Both the position numbers and the translations under genes were made by a program. A stretch of DNA of 64,000 nt, taken from the NCBI GenBank assembly GCA_044347565.1, contig JBIKUN010000002.1, positions 13,118 to 77,117 on the forward strand, in the 5' to 3' direction. This DNA is from Vicinamibacterales bacterium (GTDB lineage Bacteria; Acidobacteriota; Vicinamibacteria; Vicinamibacterales; UBA2999). This document shows, one piece after another, positions 5,968 through 29,580 of this stretch. Under the pieces are notes generated by a model. The model searched no databases and was not told where the DNA came from. It saw nothing but the letters and a program-made list of their open reading frames with translations. Position 1 is the first letter of the stretch. Each line of letters starts with the position of its first letter.

Positions 5968-7058
5968 GCCGTTCTCCGCAGGACGAACACGGTCACGTCG
6001 TCCTGTGTCTGATCGCATCCGCGATGGTCGCACACCGCGGCGACGATGGCCGCGGCGAGCACCTCGCAGTCGCCGCCGTGCCGGGCCACGAGCGTGGGGA
6101 TGTGCGTGAGGTCCCAGTCGGTGCCAGCCACATCGCGCGCTTCGGTCACGCCGTCGCTCACGACGACGAGCGTGTCGCCCGGCGCCAGCACGTGCCCGGC
6201 GTCGGCGAACACCGGCGCGTCGAGCAACCCCACGGCCGGCGCGGTCACGTCGAGGCCCACGGTCGGCGCGCCGTCCGGCCCGATGACGAGCGGGGCGGGA
6301 TGGCCCGCGTTCACGTAGCGCACGGCGCCGCTTGCCGGATCGAGCAGCGCGTGCACGAGGGTCGCGTAGCGCGAGCCTTCCGTAGAGGCGAGGATGTCGC
6401 GATTGAGCGCCGTCATCATCTCCGTCGCCGTGAGGTCGCGCTGCCGCATCGCCGCCTGCCAGCGCGCCTGCACGCTCGAGGCGATGAGCCCGGCCGCCAT
6501 GCCCTTGCCGGAGACGTCGCCGAGCACGAAGGCGAGCCGGCCTTCCACGATCGTCGCGTCGTAGAAGTCGCCGCCCACGGCGCGGGCCGGCAGCGTGCGG
6601 GCGGCCATCGTGTAGCCGGGCACGTCGGGCAGCGAGCGCGGCAGCAGATGCGCCTGGGCGCGCGCCGCCGCCGTCCATTCACGTTCAGTGTCGCGGCGGG
6701 CGGCGAGCTTCGCGCGCAGGCGGTCGAGCGTCTGCGCCAGACGCTGGCGGTTCACCGGCTTCAGCAGGTAATCGGCCGGGTCGTACTGGAAGGCGTCTAC
6801 CGCGAACCGTTCGTAGGCGGTGGCGAAGACGACGAACGGGCGCGGCTCCGGCAGCGAGGCCGCGAGCTCCGTGCCGCGTTCGGCCGGCATCTCGATGTCG
6901 AGGAACACGACGTCGGGCGCCACCTGCGCGATGACCGCGCGCGCCTCGTCCGCATTGGCCGCCTGGCCCACCACGGTCACGCCGCCCGCTTCGACGAGCA
7001 GCGCCGTGAGACGCGCCCGCGCCGGCGCTTCGTCGTCCACCAGCACGACGCGCATCAT
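5964..7058 (-). CDS. Receiver domain fused to a PP2C/SpoIIE phosphatase
   Basis: REC (VDDE, FLDIEMP, DYLLKP) followed by VGGDFYD, GDVSGKG, NAGHP, SDGVTE and QDDVT. Confidence 0.9.
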   Translation of the reverse strand: MMRVVLVDDEAPARARLTALLVEAGGVTVVGQAANADEARAVIAQVAPDVVFLDIEMPAERGTELAASLPEPRPFVVFATAYERFAVDAFQYDPADYLLKPVNRQRLAQTLDRLRAKLAARRDTEREWTAAARAQAHLLPRSLPDVPGYTMAARTLPARAVGGDFYDATIVEGRLAFVLGDVSGKGMAAGLIASSVQARWQAAMRQRDLTATEMMTALNRDILASTEGSRYATLVHALLDPASGAVRYVNAGHPAPLVIGPDGAPTVGLDVTAPAVGLLDAPVFADAGHVLAPGDTLVVVSDGVTEARDVAGTDWDLTHIPTLVARHGGDCEVLAAAIVAAVCDHRGCDQTQDDVTVFVLRRTA

Positions 7059-9153: not shown

Positions 9154-10044
9154 GTGCCGCCGCTGACACGGTTCGCCCCCGCGCCCACGGGCTACCTGCA
9201 TCTGGGCCACGTGGTGAACGCGCTGCACGTCTGGGGCCTGGCCCGCGCGCGCGGCGGACGAGTGCTGCTGCGCATCGAAGACCACGACCGCCAGCGCTGC
9301 CGGCCGGAATACGAAGCGGCGCTGCTCGACGACCTCGACTGGCTCGGCGTCGTGCCGGACGTCTTCCCCACGGGGGCCTTCCGCGCCGGACGCTGCGACG
9401 GGCGACAGTCAGACCGTCACGCGCACTACGCCCGCGCCGCCGAGACACTCGCCGCCCGCGGCCTCGTCTACGCCTGCGCCTGCACGCGGCGCGAGATCGA
9501 AGAGGCCACGTCGGCTGCGCCGCACGCAGGCGAGCTCCGCTACCCGGGCACGTGCCGGCATCGCGGCCTGCCGCTCGCGGACGGCGTCGGCTGGCGCCTC
9601 GTGCTGCCCGACGACACCATCACGTTCGACGACCTCGCACACGGCCCGACCACGCAGACGCCGGCAGCGCAGTGCGGCGATCTGCTCGTGCGCGACCGGC
9701 TCGGCAACTGGACGTATCAGCTCGCGGTGGTCGTCGATGATCTGCTGCACGGCATCGACCTCGTCGTGCGCGGCGACGACCTGTTCGCCTCCACCGGGCG
9801 CCAGGTCCTGCTCGCGCGGCTGCTCGGCCGCGAGTCGCCGCCGGCGTTCTTCCATCACAGCCTCGTGATGCAGACGCCCACACAGAAGCTGAGCAAGTCG
9901 GATGGCGCCCGCGGCGTCCGCGACCTGCGTGCCGCCGGCTGGACGCCGGCGCGGGTGCTCGGCCACGCCGCCCACCTGGGCGGCCTGATGCCCGCACCGC
10001 GTGATCTCACGACCGCGGACGTGCCGGCTCTCTTCGCGCGCTGA
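9154..10044 (+). CDS. gluQ: Glutamyl-Q tRNA(Asp) synthetase-like protein (GluRS catalytic domain only)
   Basis: TRFAPAPTGYLHLGH, LRIEDHD, CACTR..YPGTC zinc site, YQLAVVVDD, VRGDDL, KLSKS. No anticodon-binding domain. Confidence 0.8.
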   Translation: MPPLTRFAPAPTGYLHLGHVVNALHVWGLARARGGRVLLRIEDHDRQRCRPEYEAALLDDLDWLGVVPDVFPTGAFRAGRCDGRQSDRHAHYARAAETLAARGLVYACACTRREIEEATSAAPHAGELRYPGTCRHRGLPLADGVGWRLVLPDDTITFDDLAHGPTTQTPAAQCGDLLVRDRLGNWTYQLAVVVDDLLHGIDLVVRGDDLFASTGRQVLLARLLGRESPPAFFHHSLVMQTPTQKLSKSDGARGVRDLRAAGWTPARVLGHAAHLGGLMPAPRDLTTADVPALFAR

Positions 10045-23147: not shown

Positions 23148-25031
23148 TCAGCGGTTGACGAGGAACTCGGGACTGTTGACGAGCGCCCAGAGCAGGTCTT
23201 CGGTGCCGCGGCTGCGGTTGCCGGCGAGCGTGCGGCGGGCCACGCCGCGTTCGGCGGGTGAGGGCGTGCGCGCGCCGGTGCTCATGTAGAGCTCGTCGAT
23301 GATTTCGTCGTCGGTGCGCGTCGAGCCCACGAGCGTGGCGACGGTGCCCTGCGCGGACGCCAGCACACGATCGTTCACCACGGTCGACTTCATCATGAGC
23401 AGCGCCTGCAGCGTGGACGGGCGGTTGCCGCTCTGCGGCGGCGTGCGGCGGTTGCTCTGGAAGAAGCTCTGCAGCATCGCGTCCACGGCCATGGACTCTC
23501 CGGCGCGGCCGATGTCACCAGGTGTGGCGAGCTGCTTCACACGTGTCATGGTTTCGCCGCCGAGCGTGAACTTGAGCGGCACGCCGGTGACGACGGCGAG
23601 CGAGTCGAGCACTTCCGGCCCGGTGAGCACGCGCGCGTAGTGGCGCGGATAGAGCGGCAGGTAGTCGTCTTTCCACGTGCCGGGGAACGACGACGAGAGC
23701 TGATAGGCGCTCGACTGCAGAATCGTGCGGATCGTGTGCTTGAGGCGGAAGCCGCTCTTCGTGAAGTCTGCCGCCATCGCCTCGAGCAGCTCGACGTTCG
23801 AGGGCTGGGCGTCCTTGCCCGAGAGGCGCAGCATGTCGAACGCATCGTGCGGCTCGACGAAGCCCACGCTCATCAGCCGGCCCCAGAGCAGGTTCACCGT
23901 AGCGCGCGCAAACTGCGGATGCGCGGTGATCATGCGGGCAAGAGCCGCCCGCGGCGCTTCACCCGCGCGCGGCCTTTCGCCGGTGAGGATGAAGGCCGGC
24001 TCGTGCGAGCCCTTCGGCCGCGGAAACTGGCTTTCGGCGAGTGTCAGGAACGGCGCGTCGTTGCCGCCGTCGTAGCCGGGGCCGAGGTCGTCCACGTGCA
24101 GGTCGCGATCGACGTTGCGCGACTTGTCGTTCCAGTTGCCGATGAGGCGTGTCGTGCCGAAGAAGGCCGACATGGCGAAGAACTCGTCGCGCTTCCGTTC
24201 GGCGAGGTACTTGTTGACGTCTTCCAGGTGGTACTCGCCGTCGTGGCACGAGATGCACGACGTGTTGAGTCCCAGGAACACGCGGCTCACGTCGATGGTG
24301 AGCGCGTCGATGTGGTCGAGGCGATTCGAGATGCGGTAGTCGTCCACGCTCTCGACGAAGCGGCTCTTGAGCTGGTTGCTGCGGCCGATGACGGCGAGCG
24401 ACGGGATGGTGGCGTGCACCTTCGACGACGGCGTGAGGACGTCGTGCACGAAGCGGTCGTAGGGCCGATCGACCTTCAGCAGTTCCTTGAACCAGTAGTG
24501 GAAGGCGTTGGCGCCCGGGCCGGCTTCGCCCGACATGCGCAGCAGATCGCCCCAGTGCCACGCCCACTGCTCGGCGAATTCGTCGGAGGCGAGCAGGCGG
24601 TCGATCAGGCGGTCGCGCTTATCCGCGGCGCGGTCGGCCGCGAAGGCACGGACGTCCGCAGAGGACGGCGGCAGGCCGGTGACGTCGAGGTAGACGCGGC
24701 GCACGAACTCGTCGTCGCCGGCGAGCGGCGCGTGCGGCACGCCGGCCTTGGCGAGGCGGTCGAAGATGAGCGTGTCGATGTAGTTGCGCCGCGGCACGGG
24801 CCGCGCCGCGGCTGCGGGATCCACCGGCCGGGCCACCGCCGCCGTGAGCCGCGCCGTGTCGCGGGTTTTGTCGTCGCCGCGCAGGCCTTCATGCGCCGCT
24901 TCCACGCGGTCGTGCGTGCTGGGCGCCGGTGCCGGCGTGGGCTGCGTCTGCGTCCAGACGGTGGCCGAGTAGAGCGACGTGGCGGCGACGAGGAGCGCCG
25001 AGGGACGGCGCAGCCAGCACAGCACGGACAT
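23148..25031 (-). CDS. DUF1549/DUF1553 (PSCyt2/PSD1) domain protein
   Basis: NYIDTLI, FVRRVYLDVTGLPP, DRPYDRFV, FLGLNTSCISCHD, FARATVNLLW, EDLLWALVNSPEF. Confidence 0.9.
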   Translation of the reverse strand: MSVLCWLRRPSALLVAATSLYSATVWTQTQPTPAPAPSTHDRVEAAHEGLRGDDKTRDTARLTAAVARPVDPAAAARPVPRRNYIDTLIFDRLAKAGVPHAPLAGDDEFVRRVYLDVTGLPPSSADVRAFAADRAADKRDRLIDRLLASDEFAEQWAWHWGDLLRMSGEAGPGANAFHYWFKELLKVDRPYDRFVHDVLTPSSKVHATIPSLAVIGRSNQLKSRFVESVDDYRISNRLDHIDALTIDVSRVFLGLNTSCISCHDGEYHLEDVNKYLAERKRDEFFAMSAFFGTTRLIGNWNDKSRNVDRDLHVDDLGPGYDGGNDAPFLTLAESQFPRPKGSHEPAFILTGERPRAGEAPRAALARMITAHPQFARATVNLLWGRLMSVGFVEPHDAFDMLRLSGKDAQPSNVELLEAMAADFTKSGFRLKHTIRTILQSSAYQLSSSFPGTWKDDYLPLYPRHYARVLTGPEVLDSLAVVTGVPLKFTLGGETMTRVKQLATPGDIGRAGESMAVDAMLQSFFQSNRRTPPQSGNRPSTLQALLMMKSTVVNDRVLASAQGTVATLVGSTRTDDEIIDELYMSTGARTPSPAERGVARRTLAGNRSRGTEDLLWALVNSPEFLVNR

Positions 25032-25140
25032 CTGAGCCTCCGGGGACCTCCGGCCCGCGCGCCGGAATGGCGCACAGTCTAGCAGTCCGGACGCCTCGCC
25101 GGACGGCTATTCCAGCGGTCTGCCGGGGGAGCCGCCGGCT

Positions 25141-25389
25141 CCGCCGGACGGCGGGACGCGGTCCGGTCGTCGGCTCCGCTTCGCGCGTCGGTCACTCGCA
25201 CCTCCCGGCGACTTGCGCCTGTACAAGCCCTTAGGGGGCCCCCATGCCGGGGCCCCCGACGCGCGGACTGTGCGCGTTGGGGTGGCGTCCCCTGCCCAAA
25301 AGAGGCCCGCACTCTCGGTGCGAGTGTCGCAATCGGAAGCGCCGCGCTCAGAGTCGCCGCCGCCCGGACCGCGTCCCGCCGCCCGGCGG
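25141..25389. repeat. Structured element, copy A (249 nt, 26-bp closing stem)
   Basis: 25141-25166 pairs with 25364-25389 at 25 of 26 positions. The core is an inverted homolog of 25936-26143. Confidence 0.85.
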
Positions 25390-25559
25390 GTGTGGCCATT
25401 GCAGCAAAGTCGATACGTCCGGAGCACTTGCTCGAGATGCGAGAGACGGGCACAATGCCCAACCGTGTGGCGGCTCCCGTTCAAGCTTGGGGAGGCGTCG
25501 TGTGCCCCCTCGGAGCGACTCCTGCCGCCCATCGCGAGTCAGGCGGAGTGGAGGTCGTC

Positions 25560-25820
25560 GTGGATGTCGTCGAATACGGCCGTCTCGTCGAGGTGATACT
25601 GCTGTTCGCCGGGGCCTTCGGCTCTGCCTGGATCCTGCGAGGCGAAGATGCGTCGGTCGAGCGCAACGCTCGCGCGCTCATTCTGGCGGCGGTGGCGGTT
25701 CTACAGGTCGGCGGGCTCGCGCAGCTTCCACCCTCCGGTGGGTGGGCCCTGTGGTGTGTCTCGGGCAGCATGATTCTGACTGCGGGTGTCCTGGTCTCCA
25801 GGAAGGACCGAGCGCGTTGA
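25560..25820 (+). CDS. Small hypothetical membrane protein (about 86 aa, 3 hydrophobic segments) between the two structured elements
   Basis: GGAGG followed by GTG at 25560; MDVVEYGRLVEVILLFAGAFGSAWIL...SRKDRAR. Codon usage is less GC3-biased than the flanking genes. Confidence 0.5.
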   Translation: MDVVEYGRLVEVILLFAGAFGSAWILRGEDASVERNARALILAAVAVLQVGGLAQLPPSGGWALWCVSGSMILTAGVLVSRKDRAR

Positions 25821-25935
25821 CGTCGAGTTGGGCGTCGAATGGTGGGGCGGGAGTTCGCGCCAGTCGCGAACGCCAACCCACGGATTGTCGTGGCGCAGCA
25901 GCCCGACGTGCTCAGCGGGCAGTGACACTGGCGTT

Positions 25936-26143
25936 GCCGCTGGGCGGGCCGGCACCGTCCGGGCGGCGGCGACTCTGAGCGCGTCGTGAACGGATCCGAC
26001 ACTCGCACCGGGAGTGCGGGCAACTCCAGGGCAGGGAATGGGGGCTCCCTAAGGGCTCGTACAGGCGCAAGTCTCCGAGAGGTGCGAGTGACCGACGCGC
26101 GAAGCGGAGCCGACGAACGGACGGTGCCGGCCCGACCAGCGGC
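25936..26143. repeat. Structured element, copy B (208 nt, 26-bp closing stem), inverted relative to copy A
   Basis: 25936-25961 pairs with 26118-26143 at 25 of 26 positions. It shares long near-identical blocks with the reverse complement of copy A. Confidence 0.85.
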
Positions 26144-26173
26144 GAACTGGCACCCTCCGTCAGCGGCGCAGCG

Positions 26174-28774
26174 TTACTTGGCCGTCTTCAGCCACGCCGT
26201 GAGCGGGGCGCTCTGCCTGGCGTCGATGGCGGCGCAGGCCTCGATGCGTTCGATGGCCTGACGCAGGCTGCGCGCGGCGGCCGGTTCGTGGTGCTTCTCG
26301 AAGAATGCCTTCACCTCGTTCGCGCGCTCCGTGCTGCAGAAGGCGCCGAGTCCGCCCACGATGGCGGGCACGCCCTGGAACACGCCCACCTTCGTCGTGA
26401 TCGCCTCCCACTGCTGCTGCACGAACGTCCAGGCCGCGTCGCCTTGGGCGCCGCCGAAGAGCTGCGCGAGCACGGTGGGTACGTCCTGCGAGCGGACCTC
26501 GTCCGTCAGTGTCGAGGCCAGCGTGCGCTGCACGAGCGCCGGGTCGCGGAAGGCCGGCAGCGCGCCGAAGAGGCGGTAGTAGATGTCGGGGGTGGCGGCG
26601 GATGCCTGCATCTTCGCGCGAAGGCGGTCGTAGAGCGCGGCATCACCAGCGCCCGCCGCGATGTTGAGGGCGGCGCCGATGAGCGACGGCGACACCGAGT
26701 CCACGCGGTCGAGGTATGCCAGCGTAAGCGCGGTGGCCTTGGCGCGCACACGTTCGTCACCCGCGCTGCCAAGCAGCCCCATCAGCACGCCGCGGCGCGT
26801 CTGCACGTCGTCGCTGTCGCCAGGCGTCGGATCGACCCCGATGGCGTCGAGCGCCGGGCCGAACTTGGCGCGGATCCAGGCGTTCAGCGGCGCGCGATCC
26901 GCCTCGCCTGCGATGGCGCCGTTCACGAAGCCGACGCGTCCGGCGATGTCGCTCGTGACCGACGGCGTCGTGTCGCCCGCGAACGCCGCCGCCAGATCCA
27001 GGAACGTGCCCACGTCGTGACGGCCGGCGCGCACAAGGCGCCATTCGTCGCCGAGCAGGCTTACCTTCTCCGCGCCCGTGAGGGCCGTCTTGCGGGCGGC
27101 GAGCGCCGTGAGCGCCGCCGGCTCGTACTCCGTGATGTAGTAGCCGCGGGCATCCGCGTTCACCATCGCCGCACCGCACCCCGGCGCGTTGAAGCTCTGC
27201 GTCGAGTCGGACACCAGCTCGCAGGTGGTCTTGCCCGTGTCGGTCTTCACACACACCGGCAGCGACCAGGCCTGCGGCGCCGAGGGCTTCGCGCCAATGG
27301 TGCTGTCGAAGCGGCGCTGCCGCACCGTCACCTTCGTCTGCCCGCCGACGCACGACGTGCTCACCGAGAGCACCGGCGCGCCGGGCTGATCCACGAAGCT
27401 GCGCATCACGCGGTTCACGGGCTTTTCAGTGACGCGCGTCACTTCGTTCCAGAAGTCCTCGCCCGCGGCGTTCGACGACGAGTAGCGCGTGAGATACGCC
27501 GACACGCCCTTCCGGAACGCTTCGGGGCCGACAAACGCCTCCACCATGTTGATGACGCCCGACGTCTTCTCGTAGGCGATCGGATCGAACACCTCGTTGA
27601 TCTCGGCGGGCGTTTCGACCTTCGTGCGAATCGCCCGCGTGGAGCGCAGCACGTCGAGGCCGAGGGCCGTCTGCGTTTCCTCCGCCGCATTCACGTCCAT
27701 CTGCCACTCGGGCTTCCACGCCGCCAGCGGCTTGTTGGCGGCCCAGGTGGCGAAGCCTTCGTTCAGCCAGATGTCGTCCCACCACTTCATCGTCACGAGG
27801 TTCCCGAACCACTGGTGTGCGAGTTCGTGTGCGATGACCGAGGCGACCGCCTTGCGGACGCCGATCGAGGCCGTGGCTTCCTCCACGAGCAGCATGCGCT
27901 CGCGGAAGGTGATGGCGCCGGCGTTCTCCATGGCGCCGGCCGCAAAATCCGGGATGCCGATGATGTCGAGCTTGCCGAATGGATACCGGATGCCGAAGTA
28001 GTCGTTGAAGAACTTTACTTCGTACTGCGCGGCTTCCATCGCGAAGCCGGTGAGGTCTTTCTTGTCCGGCGTGGCGCAGACGCGGATCGCGATGCCGTCG
28101 CTTGTGCCCTCGCGGCACACGAAGTCGCCCACGAGCAGCGCCACGAGATACGTGGACATCTTCGGCGTCGTGGCGAAGCGCACCGTGTGCGTGCCGGCGT
28201 CCGGGCCGGGGGTGTCTGCCACCTGCGCCCCGTTCGAGATCGCCATGTCGCCGGCGGCGATCGTCATCGCGATGTCGAAGGTGGCCTTCTTCGCGGGTTC
28301 GTCGAAGCAGGGGAAGGCGCGGCGGGCATCCGTGGCTTCCATCTGGCTCACCGCGTAGTTCCGCGTCGCGCCCTTGCTCAGGTAGAAGCCGCGCAGCTTG
28401 TCGTTCAGGATGCCGCGGTACGTCACGTGGATGGTCGCCGTGCCGGCCGCGAGTGGCGCCGGCGCGGTGAAGGTGACCATCTCGTCGTTCGTGTTCTCGG
28501 CCACCGTGGCGGGCACGGTCTTCCCGCCCGCCTCGATCGTGACCGTGTCGAACGCGATCTCCGCCGCGTGCAGCGTGATGGCCGCCGTGGGCTGCTCGAT
28601 GCGCACGCGGATGTCGACGGTGCCGCGGAAGGTGGCCGCGGCGATGTCGGGTGCGACCCAGAGCGTGTAGTGCTCGGGGGTGACGCCGCCGGGCAGCCGC
28701 TGGGCGGCCACGGGCGAGGCAAGGGCCGCGACGGCCAAGGCGAGCAGGAGGACGAGGGTGACGCGCATCCGCAT
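26174..28774 (-). CDS. pepN: Exported M1-family aminopeptidase with an ERAP1-like C-terminus
   Basis: GAMEN, HELAHQW...WLNEGFA, AYEK; signal peptide. Confidence 0.92.
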   Translation of the reverse strand: MRMRVTLVLLLALAVAALASPVAAQRLPGGVTPEHYTLWVAPDIAAATFRGTVDIRVRIEQPTAAITLHAAEIAFDTVTIEAGGKTVPATVAENTNDEMVTFTAPAPLAAGTATIHVTYRGILNDKLRGFYLSKGATRNYAVSQMEATDARRAFPCFDEPAKKATFDIAMTIAAGDMAISNGAQVADTPGPDAGTHTVRFATTPKMSTYLVALLVGDFVCREGTSDGIAIRVCATPDKKDLTGFAMEAAQYEVKFFNDYFGIRYPFGKLDIIGIPDFAAGAMENAGAITFRERMLLVEEATASIGVRKAVASVIAHELAHQWFGNLVTMKWWDDIWLNEGFATWAANKPLAAWKPEWQMDVNAAEETQTALGLDVLRSTRAIRTKVETPAEINEVFDPIAYEKTSGVINMVEAFVGPEAFRKGVSAYLTRYSSSNAAGEDFWNEVTRVTEKPVNRVMRSFVDQPGAPVLSVSTSCVGGQTKVTVRQRRFDSTIGAKPSAPQAWSLPVCVKTDTGKTTCELVSDSTQSFNAPGCGAAMVNADARGYYITEYEPAALTALAARKTALTGAEKVSLLGDEWRLVRAGRHDVGTFLDLAAAFAGDTTPSVTSDIAGRVGFVNGAIAGEADRAPLNAWIRAKFGPALDAIGVDPTPGDSDDVQTRRGVLMGLLGSAGDERVRAKATALTLAYLDRVDSVSPSLIGAALNIAAGAGDAALYDRLRAKMQASAATPDIYYRLFGALPAFRDPALVQRTLASTLTDEVRSQDVPTVLAQLFGGAQGDAAWTFVQQQWEAITTKVGVFQGVPAIVGGLGAFCSTERANEVKAFFEKHHEPAAARSLRQAIERIEACAAIDARQSAPLTAWLKTAK

Positions 28775-29416: not shown

Positions 29417-29425
29417 GTCGGGAAT

Positions 29426-29534
29426 TGTAACGGGGTCTGTCACGGTCACGACTTGTATCGGGGTCTGTCACGGTTACATCCGGTGACGGTGACAGACCCG
29501 GTGACATATGGTGTTGGTGACAGACCCCGTTACA
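29426..29534. repeat. Nested inverted repeat built from four GTGACAGACCC units (REP/BIME-like)
   Basis: Perfect 18-bp outer inverted repeat (29426-29443 / 29517-29534) and 11-bp inner inverted repeat (29461-29471 / 29489-29499). Confidence 0.85.
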
Positions 29535-29580
29535 TTTGGGCGGGCATCGGCTATCGTCTCTGTTCGTCCAAGGAGGTTCC

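What the first reader, a model, noticed from the sequence alone, without database searches (positions are those of the whole stretch)
25141..26143. Two inverted copies of an unrecognised 208/249-nt structured element, with a covarying closing stem, bracketing a small membrane ORF
Seen: copy A (25141-25389) and copy B (25936-26143) are inverted homologs. Each is closed by a 26-bp stem with one defect at the same position. Aligning ccgccgggcggcgggacgcggtccg (A, minus) with ccgctgggcgggccggcaccgtccg (B, plus) shows 7 substitutions, and every one is compensated in the partner arm. The cores are nearly identical: gcggcggcgactctgagcgcg; cgacactcgcaccgRgagtgcgggc; atgggggcYccctaagggctYgtacaggcgcaagtcKccgRgaggtgcgagtgaccgacgcgcgaagcggagccgacga. 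They contain a perfect 10-bp long-range pair (cactcgcacc/ggtgcgagtg), GNRA-type loops (GCAA; GGGA in A versus GAGA in B) and a GCGAAGC mini-hairpin. Copy A has an extra ~43-nt insert that is itself a hairpin. Inference: selection acts on the fold. This could be an undescribed multicopy ncRNA, or a non-autonomous element moved as ssDNA (REPIN/MITE-like), with the pair possibly acting as a composite unit carrying cargo. I cannot match it to any RNA class I know, and G.U pairs do not settle the functional strand.
Basis: partly seen in the sequence, partly recalled or inferred. Interest (0 to 1): 0.88.

Follow-up and report, generated by a model that had tools for sequence, protein, structure and literature searches.

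The report
Structured hairpin repeats bracketing swappable genes
The two inverted copies belong to a previously undescribed family of about 210-base, strongly folded repeats in soil Acidobacteria that occur alone or in outward-facing pairs enclosing short, variable stretches of foreign-looking genes, so they look like the boundary sites of a gene-swapping system whose enzyme is still unknown.

Summary
Copies A (25141-25389, minus) and B (25936-26143, plus) are inverted homologs. Their closing stems differ at 7 positions, all compensated.

They belong to a family ("E"): 5 copies in this genome and 3-14 per genome in 6 relatives. It occurs in two genera of one Vicinamibacterales-type family. It has no Rfam, plasmid, phage or viral match.

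On 79 non-redundant copies the fold is strongly supported: 96.8% of cells are paired, against 36-45% when partners are slid, and 0 of 500 shuffles reach this. The fold is strand-specific (G-T 322 versus A-C 26).

E occurs solo, as direct pairs around single small cassette-like genes, or as inverted pairs. The inverted pairs always have their 5' ends inward (18 versus 0). They enclose 0.2-4 kb of lower-GC, variable cargo, including TIR, Mrr, CAP12, HicB, Arr and nucleotidyltransferase genes.

At the pepN/DUF1549 locus the pair is inherited across species while the cargo differs. Four genomes lack the whole unit.

An IS110 element inserts at one apical position. The genome's RAYT belongs to a different repeat. 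No transposase recurs nearby. Integron integrases are present but never adjacent.

Best reading (0.5): a non-autonomous element that folds as a single strand and acts as a recombination site bounding exchangeable cargo. The main rival is a structured RNA (0.3).

The parts
25141..25389 (-). Copy A of element E (249 nt). Its folded strand is the minus strand. It carries the optional ~43-nt apical module.
   Evidence: covariance model R1 scores 123.5 bits on the minus strand for 25162-25368
25936..26143 (+). Copy B of element E (208 nt). Its folded strand is the plus strand.
   Evidence: R1 scores 159.4 bits on the plus strand and 11.7 bits on the reverse strand
25246..25288 (-). Optional apical module of three small hairpins. 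It is present in 11 of the 79 aligned copies. It is gained or lost within orthologous copies.
   Evidence: at the C151 locus only the G015 ortholog has it
25390..25935 (.). Cargo between the 5' ends of A and B (546 nt, 66% GC against 70% for the genome). It holds an unverified 142-aa ORF (25392-25820, plus strand) with hydrophobic C-terminal stretches.
   Evidence: no Pfam or NCBIfam hit. The same locus holds different cargo in relatives.
25995..26095 (+). Conserved long-range helix of B (25995-26009 with 26081-26095). It encloses the apical domain, whose GGGG/CCCC hairpin is the IS110 insertion point in relatives.
   Evidence: I13; helix 6; IS110 junctions
23148..25031 (-). Left flanking core gene (PSCyt2/DUF1549 + PSD1/DUF1553). 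A lies 110 nt upstream of its start. A also lies beyond a conserved -10-like box.
26174..28774 (-). Right flanking core gene (M1 aminopeptidase, pepN-like). Its 3' end faces the 3' end of B.

Best explanation
A and B are two members of a lineage-specific family of ~200-260-bp non-autonomous DNA elements ("E"). One defined strand of E folds into a long branched hairpin. The fold has these parts:
- a 25-35-bp closing stem that differs from copy to copy;
- conserved purine-rich symmetric internal loops;
- an almost invariant 10-12-bp helix;
- an apical domain.

I propose that the folded single strand is the form recognised by an enzyme acting in trans. The logic would be that of integron attC sites, IS200/IS605 ends and REPINs. 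I further propose that E acts as a portable recombination or boundary site. Two copies with their 5' ends facing each other delimit a slot in which short pieces of foreign DNA (defence, toxin-antitoxin and resistance-like genes, and many orphans) are gained, lost and replaced. Solo and truncated copies would be products of spread and decay.

Shown: the family, the fold, its strand specificity, the pair geometry, cargo turnover at a fixed locus, presence/absence polymorphism, and targeting by an IS110.

Inferred: that the active form is single-stranded DNA, that E is a recombination site, and that an unidentified trans-acting enzyme exists.
For: 1. Family. There are 5 copies in G000. BLAST finds matches in 16 of 18 other genomes of the genus. 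Model R1 finds matches in 17 of 101 family genomes: g1 6/6, g24 5/6, and weaker matches in g41, g37 and g23.
2. Fold. On 79 non-redundant copies, 59 pairs are predicted and 33 show compensatory changes. 96.8% of cells are paired, against 36-45% when partners are slid. There are 588 double-change cells against 182 in shuffles, and 0 of 500 shuffles reach this.
3. Strand specificity. G-T 322 versus A-C 26 overall, and 157 versus 20 in the outer stem. The bias holds in all nine gene-context classes. Where both neighbours would transcribe the antisense strand it is still 58 versus 6. That argues against read-through RNA as the sole cause.
4. Geometry. There are 18 inverted pairs with 5' ends inward (about 16 unique, about 11 independent loci by my reading) and 0 of the opposite kind. 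There are also 4 direct pairs.
5. Subfamily. In the pairs I compared, both members belong to the same subfamily.
6. Cargo. It is 63-70% GC against 70% for the genome. The 5' side of paired copies is 66.6% GC against 70.5% on the 3' side (n=27, Wilcoxon p=0.002), while solos show no difference. Contents:
- Mrr_cat+TIR_2, DUF4062+pYEATS, CAP12 TIR, YetF, PQQ dehydrogenase, YndJ;
- glyoxalase, nucleotidyltransferase, Arr-ms;
- HicB-like.
7. pepN/DUF1549 locus. The pair is present with the same A-type and B-type stems in G000, G015 and G007, but the cargo is 546, 1790 and 1288 nt. It is 194 nt in G006. The pair is decayed in G013 and G017. It is absent, with a 17-160 nt intergenic region, in G016, G005, G004 and G012.
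8. Orthologous solo copies keep the stem through compensated changes. G013 lacks the copy.
9. G000 lacks E at loci filled in relatives, some with arm remnants.
10. An IS110 (DEDD_Tnp_IS110 + Transposase_20) sits at an identical apical position in two copies. IS110 elements are known to target REP-type repeats (abstracts of PMC1525189 and PMC11208160).
11. There is no match in viral contigs, plasmids or phages.
Against: - No enzyme was identified. No recombinase recurs next to copies, and no pair encloses a transposase. The 454-aa orphan in one pair occurs in 1 of 19 genomes.
- No target-site duplication or clean insertion junction was found, so movement is inferred only from presence/absence.
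- Conserved G.U pairs favour RNA: 63/79, 44/79 and 45/79 at three positions. So does long in-situ maintenance of the fold in orthologs.
- There is no local GC-skew bias among solos (19 versus 19), so no replication-strand signal was seen.
- A conserved non-coding module with an AT-rich promoter-like box lies just 5' of five copies, pointing into them. That would fit sense-strand transcription.
- Many counts include orthologous loci and related genomes, so they overstate independence.
Confidence: 0.5

Rival explanations
1. E is primarily a structured RNA. It could be an independently expressed non-coding RNA. It could instead be a cis element (processing site, stabiliser or insulator, for example an RNase III substrate) carried on transcripts that leave the cargo. 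Its genomic spread would be secondary.
For: - The fold is strongly covarying and strand-specific, with conserved G.U pairs.
- Tandem G.A-type symmetric internal loops are visible in the folds.
- Structure is maintained in orthologous copies across species.
- In every inverted pair, and in 3 of 5 direct pairs, the cargo genes next to a copy are followed by that copy in sense orientation.
- A promoter-like AT-rich module points into five copies.
- AT-rich 8-mers lie within 400 nt on the 5' side of 12 of 70 copies, against 2 of 70 on the 3' side.
Against: - There is no Rfam match at E<=10.
- There is no conserved promoter directly at the variable 5' arm and no U-tract terminator.
- For solos the upstream gene is co-oriented in 23 cases and opposed in 21. 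The downstream gene is convergent in 41 and co-oriented in 14, so neighbours would mostly transcribe the antisense strand.
- The G-T bias is equally strong in those contexts.
- An RNA role does not explain the exclusive 5'-inward pair geometry, the same-subfamily pairing, or cargo turnover.
Confidence: 0.3
2. E is a non-canonical, oversized attC-like site used by the lineage's integron integrase acting in trans. The E-bounded genes would then be dispersed cassettes (CALIN-like).
For: - A bona fide integron integrase exists: G000:C192 scores 436 bits against a cut-off of 265. 13 of 19 genus genomes are over the cut-off, and 0 of 14 controls are.
- All 12 strong-E genomes have an integrase match at E<=1e-60, and 10 are over the cut-off.
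- Three direct pairs enclose single small co-oriented genes of classic cassette types.
- The fold is single-strand-specific and varies in sequence, as attC does (abstracts of PMC3053210 and PMC5027507).
- Module M lies next to E and also ~500 nt upstream of intI in G006.
Against: - E is 198-272 nt. The attC range of about 57-141 nt is recalled, not from a call.
- There are no conserved RYYYAAC/GTTRRRY boxes at the stem base.
- No copy lies within 10 kb of intI in 6 genomes, or on the intI contigs of 5 more.
- Most copies are solos or inverted pairs, which attC x attC recombination would invert rather than excise.
- The folded strand is the coding strand in 3 of 3 direct cassettes, whereas attC uses the bottom strand.
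- The integrase is widespread without E: 45 of 101 genomes and 27 of 41 genera.
- G016 has intI but no E match.
- G015 and G009 have many copies but a split or stop-interrupted intI.
- The co-occurrence rests on only two genera.
Confidence: 0.12
3. A plain MITE or REPIN moved by a RAYT or a classical transposase. Pairs would be chance neighbours or composite transposons.
For: E is palindromic, intergenic, multicopy, polymorphic and long-lived. REPINs share these properties (abstracts of PMC3116915 and 10.1101/2021.07.10.451892). MITE pairs can mobilise intervening DNA (listing for PMC6382973).
Against: - The RAYT of G000 is flanked by another repeat.
- Y1_Tnp is in 42 of 61 family genomes regardless of E, and G013 has none.
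- No target-site duplications were seen.
- No autonomous relative was found.
- Chance neighbours would give both inverted orientations, not 18:0.
- The ~100-nt conserved asymmetric core is unlike a REP doublet.
Confidence: 0.06
4. A local inverted duplication with no wider significance.
For: A and B are each other's closest relatives within G000.
Against: There are three further copies in G000 and about 100 across relatives. Covariation far exceeds the controls.
Confidence: 0.01

Closest known systems
REPINs / REP sequences with RAYT transposases
   Same: Both are palindromic, intergenic and multicopy. Both fold as a hairpin, persist at orthologous sites for long periods, and are targets of IS110-family elements (abstracts).
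   Different: E is 2-3 times longer and has a conserved asymmetric branched core. Its copy number is low (3-14 per genome). The genome's RAYT is flanked by a different repeat. Recurrent inverted pairs enclose kilobases of cargo.
Integron attC sites and gene cassettes
   Same: Both have a single-strand-specific fold with structure conserved and stem sequence free. Both sit next to small promoterless-looking genes of cassette type. An integron integrase is present in the genome. IS110/IS1111 targeting of attC is a recalled parallel.
   Different: E has the wrong size and no R boxes. It is not adjacent to intI. It occurs mostly as solos or inverted pairs. The folded strand equals the coding strand in the direct cassettes.
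dif modules bounded by inverted pdif (XerC/D) sites in Acinetobacter plasmids
   Same: In both, short accessory modules (resistance and toxin-antitoxin genes) are bounded by recombination sites in inverted orientation and shuffled between contexts (abstracts of PMC6449649 and PMC13141974). This is the closest match to the pair geometry.
   Different: pdif sites are 28-bp double-stranded Xer sites on plasmids (recalled). E is a ~210-nt folded element on chromosomes. No Xer-type core was looked for or seen.
MITE-flanked composite units (e.g. MITEAba12; integron mobilisation units)
   Same: Two copies of a non-autonomous repeat flank cargo (listing).
   Different: Those have transposase-type terminal inverted repeats, target duplications and a parent IS. 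None of these was found for E. Compensatory stem evolution and strand bias are not expected for them.

Membership tests
Any Rfam 15 family | Covariance-model match | tested here: not met
   0 matches at E<=10 over window 24800-26500. Only sub-threshold chance hits over module M plus a copy.
REPIN/RAYT system | A cognate single-copy RAYT gene flanked by the repeat | tested here: not met
   G000's Y1_Tnp gene (C85:6738-7088) is flanked at 6606, 6634 and 7367 by a different repeat and has no E copy near it. G013 has 10 or more E copies and no Y1_Tnp match.
REPIN/RAYT system | Two short REP sequences in inverted orientation with a short spacer | tested here: not met
   E is 198-272 nt with a ~100-nt conserved asymmetric core.
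REPIN/RAYT system | Long vertical persistence at orthologous sites with the hairpin kept | tested here: met
   C151 locus in 5 species and pepN locus in 5 or more species, with compensated stems.
MITE | Target-site duplication flanking the element | tested here: inconclusive
   No recurrent direct repeat at the ends of 77 copies. Empty sites are too diverged or too imprecise to call.
MITE | A parent autonomous IS sharing the ends | tested here: not met
   No transposase between any pair. No recombinase among recurrent neighbours. The only IS seen interrupts the element.
Integron attC | Imperfect palindrome of about 57-141 nt with RYYYAAC / GTTRRRY boxes at the stem base (definition recalled) | tested here: not met
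   Lengths are 198-272 nt. Stem bases are variable without these boxes.
Integron attC | Direct arrays adjacent to intI/attI | tested here: not met
   nhmmer at E<=1 finds no copy in 11 intI loci. Direct pairs exist elsewhere.
Integron attC | One strand folds and is the recognised form | tested here: inconclusive
   Strand-specific fold is shown. Recognition by IntI is not testable here. The strand is opposite to the attC convention in 3 of 3 direct cassettes.
IS110 bridge/seek RNA | Non-coding RNA encoded within the IS next to its DEDD recombinase | tested here: not met
   E copies lack an adjacent recombinase. In G009 the IS110 is inserted inside E.
dif (pdif) modules | Cargo bounded by inverted 28-bp XerC/XerD sites | not tested
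   Only the inverted-site geometry is shared. No Xer core search was done.

The most novel reading that the evidence does not exclude
E is the site of a previously unknown cassette-exchange system. A ~210-nt element is read as a folded single strand. Two copies facing each other define a chromosomal slot whose gene content is swapped by a trans-acting recombinase. That enzyme could be the lineage's integron integrase working on a non-canonical substrate, or an enzyme not yet recognised. The geometry fits: on either strand of the unit, the sense-folded copy lies at the 3' end. So whichever strand becomes single-stranded carries a folded site, or priming hairpin, at its 3' end.
Probability: 0.2. 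Interest if true: 0.9.

Novelty: new variant of a known kind. Interest (0 to 1): 0.7.

Why it matters
Acidobacteria are among the most abundant soil bacteria, yet their mobile-DNA biology is barely known. This is a well-defined family with about 100 copies in hand. It has one of the clearest covariation signals one can get without experiments. It also has a reproducible architecture in which outward-facing pairs enclose exchangeable defence, toxin-antitoxin and resistance-like genes.

If the element is a folded-DNA recombination site, it adds a third kind of cassette system beside integrons and dif modules, and it gives a handle for finding its enzyme. If it is an RNA, it is a new large structured RNA class tied to horizontally acquired genes. 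Either way the element marks integration hotspots that can be used to mine variable gene content in uncultured Vicinamibacterales-type genomes.

Tried and rejected
RNA evidence. One search for RNA runs listed 5 runs. Laying 4 of them gave only short (151-200 nt), low-depth contigs of relatives' copies in one soil metatranscriptome, and pieces in a run that is probably DNA. This gives no verdict on transcription, strand or ends.

RAYT. Y1_Tnp is present in 42 of 61 family genomes whether or not E is present. Rejected as the partner enzyme.

Integron adjacency. No copy near intI in 11 loci. No repeat array next to intI in G007 except a tandem of the other repeat.

Orphan proteins. The 454-aa ORF inside one pair is found in 1 of 19 genomes. 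It has no Pfam or NCBIfam hit. Rejected as a general enzyme.

Target-derived stem idea. Two empty sites in G000 (C212, C67) keep a stretch like the 5' arm. I considered that the stem is copied from the target. I rejected this because the retained motif is shared by arms of copies at other loci and is not enriched in the genome (13 occurrences against 50 for the reversed control). These sites are better read as deletion remnants.

Low-GC cargo beside solos. No difference was seen (68.8% versus 69.2%, n=38).

Replication-strand bias by local GC skew. None was seen (19 versus 19).

Flank motif search. Only weak 5-mer enrichments were found, partly stop codons and orthologous flanks.

Neighbour clustering. 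The first run was dominated by frames reading through E. It was repeated without them.

Other collections. Plasmids, phages and viral contigs gave no match. The pattern also hit 35 of 108 genome stretches and 27 of 43 metagenome stretches that nhmmer does not confirm. These are chance hits of a GC-rich word.

Literature. Searches listed no description of this element. Only listings and abstracts were read. Supplements were not consulted and could hold repeat catalogues that include it.

Unpublished genomes. The tally includes G044 and G113. The tallies include G117. No other claim rests on them.
Full report
**1. The observation**

The repeat finder gives A and B as inverted homologs: 108 nt at 87% and 100 nt at 79% complementarity. 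Each copy is self-complementary over its outer ~50 nt.

The 5' arms of A (read on the minus strand) and B differ at 7 of 25 positions. The 3' arms carry the matching changes. The single defect lies at the same place in both (sequence).

B folds at -134 kcal/mol, against -99 +/- 4.7 for shuffles. The reverse strand folds almost as well, as expected for a palindrome.

A has ~43 extra nt at the apex.

The flanking genes are a PSCyt2/PSD1 (DUF1549/DUF1553) protein and an M1 aminopeptidase.

**2. It is a family**

The window's genome is 4.66 Mb, 70% GC, in 262 contigs. It holds three further copies, on contigs C151, C77 and C112. The C112 copy has an internal deletion. Each copy has a closing stem of different sequence.

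BLAST finds the element in 16 of 18 other genomes of the genus.

A scan of one genome per GTDB species with a conserved 20-base pattern gave 108 stretches. nhmmer confirms 73 of them. Of the 80 stretches listed with titles, the confirmed ones are titled Acidobacteria, Acidobacteriota or Vicinamibacterales. Three are exceptions, on contigs of 3.4, 3.7 and 35 kb labelled as other phyla. I suspect these are binning errors.

A covariance model built from 51 trimmed copies finds the family in 17 of 101 genomes of the taxonomic family. The hits are in genus g1 (6/6) and genus g24 (5/6), with weak divergent matches in g41, g37 and g23. Per-genome matches in that call were 3 to 14.

Nothing matches in Rfam, in viral contigs, or in plasmid or phage records.

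**3. The fold**

I aligned 79 non-redundant full copies with MAFFT, without reference to structure. RNAalifold predicts 59 pairs, and 33 have compensatory changes.

Counting that structure gives the following:
- 96.8% of 4655 cells are paired, against 83.6% for shuffled partners and 36-45% when partners are slid by 1-3 columns.
- There are 588 cells with changes on both sides, against 182 in shuffles.
- 0 of 500 shuffles reach any of the five measures.

In the outer stem, 23 of 24 pairs change on both sides, with up to six pair types each. One pair of the otherwise invariant long-range helix switches among A-U (43), G-C (31) and C-G (3).

The copies are related, so the shuffle test overstates significance. 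The slid controls and the orthologous comparisons below do not share that weakness.

On the strand of B, G-T pairs outnumber A-C pairs 322 to 26, and 157 to 20 in the outer stem alone. So one strand is the folded one.

Three G.U positions are conserved.

The architecture has these parts:
- a rod with two or three symmetric purine-rich internal loops;
- a 10-12-bp conserved helix;
- an apical domain with a GGGG/CCCC hairpin;
- in 11 of the 79 aligned copies, an optional ~43-nt module.

This optional module is present or absent among orthologous copies.

**4. Where the copies sit**

Copies are intergenic.

For solos, the gene on the element's 3' side is convergent in 41 cases and co-oriented in 14. 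The gene on the 5' side is co-oriented in 23 and opposed in 21. These counts include orthologous loci.

The G-T excess is the same in every context class. It holds even where both neighbours would transcribe the antisense strand (58 versus 6).

Local GC skew shows no bias.

**5. Pairs and cargo**

Among neighbouring copies, 18 are inverted with their 5' ends facing each other and none has the opposite arrangement. By my reading these are about 16 unique pairs at about 11 independent loci. Four pairs are direct and three are split copies. A further 5'-inward pair occurs in genus g24 and one more on a metagenome contig.

In the pairs I compared, both members belong to the same subfamily.

The enclosed 0.2-4 kb is 63-70% GC and shares little sequence between loci. 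The 5' side of paired copies is 66.6% GC against 70.5% on the 3' side (n=27, p=0.002). Solos show no such step.

Cargo genes found in inverted pairs:
- Mrr_cat plus TIR_2
- DUF4062 plus pYEATS
- a CAP12/Pycsar-type TIR protein
- YetF
- a PQQ dehydrogenase
- YndJ

Cargo genes found between direct copies:
- a glyoxalase/bleomycin-resistance-like protein
- an aminoglycoside-nucleotidyltransferase/AbiEii-like protein
- an Arr-type rifampin ADP-ribosyltransferase
- a HicB-like antitoxin

Many cargo ORFs have no family.

**6. One locus through the genus**

At the pepN/DUF1549 junction the pair is present in G000, G015, G006, G007 and G009. The cargo is 546, 1790, 194, 1288 and about 2600 nt. The B-type stem stays on the pepN side and the A-type stem on the DUF1549 side in G000, G015 and G007.

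G013 keeps one full copy and a 3' remnant of the other. G017 keeps only the outer arms of both.

G016, G005, G004 and G012 have no element and only 17-160 nt between the genes.

The intergenic flanks are too diverged to define a junction or a duplication.

At the C77 locus, G000 has a solo copy. G007 has a pair with 3.8 kb of cargo. G011 has two direct copies around the glyoxalase gene. G015 has a full copy abutting a partial inverted one.

At the C151 locus, five species share an orthologous solo copy whose stem differs by compensated changes. G013 lacks it.

G000 has the fewest copies among its close relatives. It lacks the element at seven loci that are filled elsewhere. Two of those retain ~16-20 nt of the 5' arm.

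**7. Enzymes**

A 1.44-kb IS110-family element encodes a 437-aa protein with DEDD_Tnp_IS110 and Transposase_20 domains. It is inserted at the same apical position in two different copies of G009. The two insertions are 99.9% identical. So E is its target, as REP sequences are for other IS110 members (abstracts).

The RAYT-type gene of G000 is flanked by another palindromic repeat. That repeat is abundant: its 19-mer occurs 63 times, against 0 for the reversed control. So the RAYT belongs to that family and not to E.

Y1 transposases are found in 42 of 61 family genomes and do not track E.

I clustered 1240 ORFs within 3 kb of copies. The recurrent families that Pfam could name were housekeeping ones, and 5 of the 10 cluster representatives had no Pfam hit.

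Integron integrases are present. 13 of 19 genus genomes are over the curated cut-off, including G000:C192, and 45 of 101 family genomes are. No copy of E lies near any of 11 intI loci.

All 12 strong-E genomes have an integrase match, but they represent only two genera. Several genomes rich in E have a split or stop-interrupted intI. G016 has intI without E.

**8. A second module**

A non-coding segment of 200-290 nt with an AT-rich box lies immediately 5' of E, in the same orientation, at five copies. A related stretch lies ~500 nt upstream of intI in G006. It has no Rfam match. It might be a promoter or leader for sense transcription of E, or another mobile piece. I could not decide.

**9. 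Reading**

The data establish a structured, strand-specific, long-lived and polymorphic repeat family whose inverted pairs bound exchangeable cargo.

Four points favour a folded single-stranded DNA site over an RNA:
- The strand bias is independent of neighbouring transcription.
- The pair geometry is exclusive.
- Pair members share a subfamily.
- Cargo turns over between the copies.

Three points keep the RNA reading alive:
- There are conserved G.U pairs.
- The fold is maintained in situ.
- Module M could drive sense transcription.

The two readings are not exclusive. No enzyme is identified and no junction is clean, so the mechanism remains inferred.

I rate the DNA-site reading 0.5, the RNA reading 0.3, the integron-integrase substrate reading 0.12, a plain MITE/REPIN 0.06, and a local duplication 0.01.

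**10. Novelty**

No description was found in two literature searches (listings and abstracts only). No curated RNA family matches. In kind the element sits between REPINs, attC sites and dif-module sites, and it fails a defining test for each of the first two. I class it as a new variant of a known kind. There is a 0.2 chance that it marks a distinct cassette-exchange system.

Noticed in passing
window 29424-29536 (G000:C9:42541-42653); also G000:C9:1164-1257 and 26 other contigs: A second, unrelated palindromic repeat. Its 19-mer occurs 63 times in G000, against 0 for the reversed control. It usually forms inverted pairs 50-110 nt apart. Copies flank the genome's RAYT-type gene (C85:6738-7088), which is the classic REP/RAYT arrangement. 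Tandem copies lie ~800 bp upstream of intI in G007.
   Followed up: partly
G000:C192:384-1328 (outside the window): An integron integrase scoring 436 bits against a cut-off of 265, on a 2969-bp contig. In several relatives intI also sits at a contig end. No classical cassette array was seen next to intI in G007.
   Followed up: partly
L071:2084-3526 and L108:3511-4954 (G009): A 1.44-kb IS110-family insertion sequence (437-aa DEDD recombinase). Its two copies are 99.9% identical. Each interrupts a copy of the element at the same apical position, without evident duplication.
   Followed up: yes
L047:4985-5270 and 9709-9990; L129:128-307; L107:353-548; L071:358-503; L198:8579-8770: A conserved non-coding module of 200-290 nt with an AT-rich box and two small hairpins. 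It always lies just 5' of an element copy and is co-oriented with it. It also lies ~500 nt upstream of the integron integrase of G006. It has no Rfam match.
   Followed up: partly
L044:1935-4067; L045:2149-3132; L039:1684-2544: Defence-type genes inside pairs. L044 has Mrr_cat next to a TIR_2 protein. L045 has a DUF4062-pYEATS fusion. L039 has a CAP12/Pycsar-type TIR effector. L044 and L045 appear to be one locus in two species, with shared cargo ends and different centres.
   Followed up: partly
window 25075-25091: A motif conserved across the genus upstream of the DUF1549 gene, with a -10-like hexamer on the minus strand. Copy A lies beyond it, so A is not in that gene's leader.
   Followed up: no
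L255:8801-18383 (G129) and L256:5567-11932 (G152): In genus g41, divergent weak matches to the model (40-48 bits) lie as three or four direct copies, 2-4 kb apart. The G129 copies are on the opposite strand to most neighbouring genes, and two of them sit just past a gene's 3' end.
   Followed up: partly
G008:C84:711-8444: At the pepN/DUF1549 junction G008 has 7.7 kb between the two genes, with no element detected by BLAST. The content was not examined.
   Followed up: no
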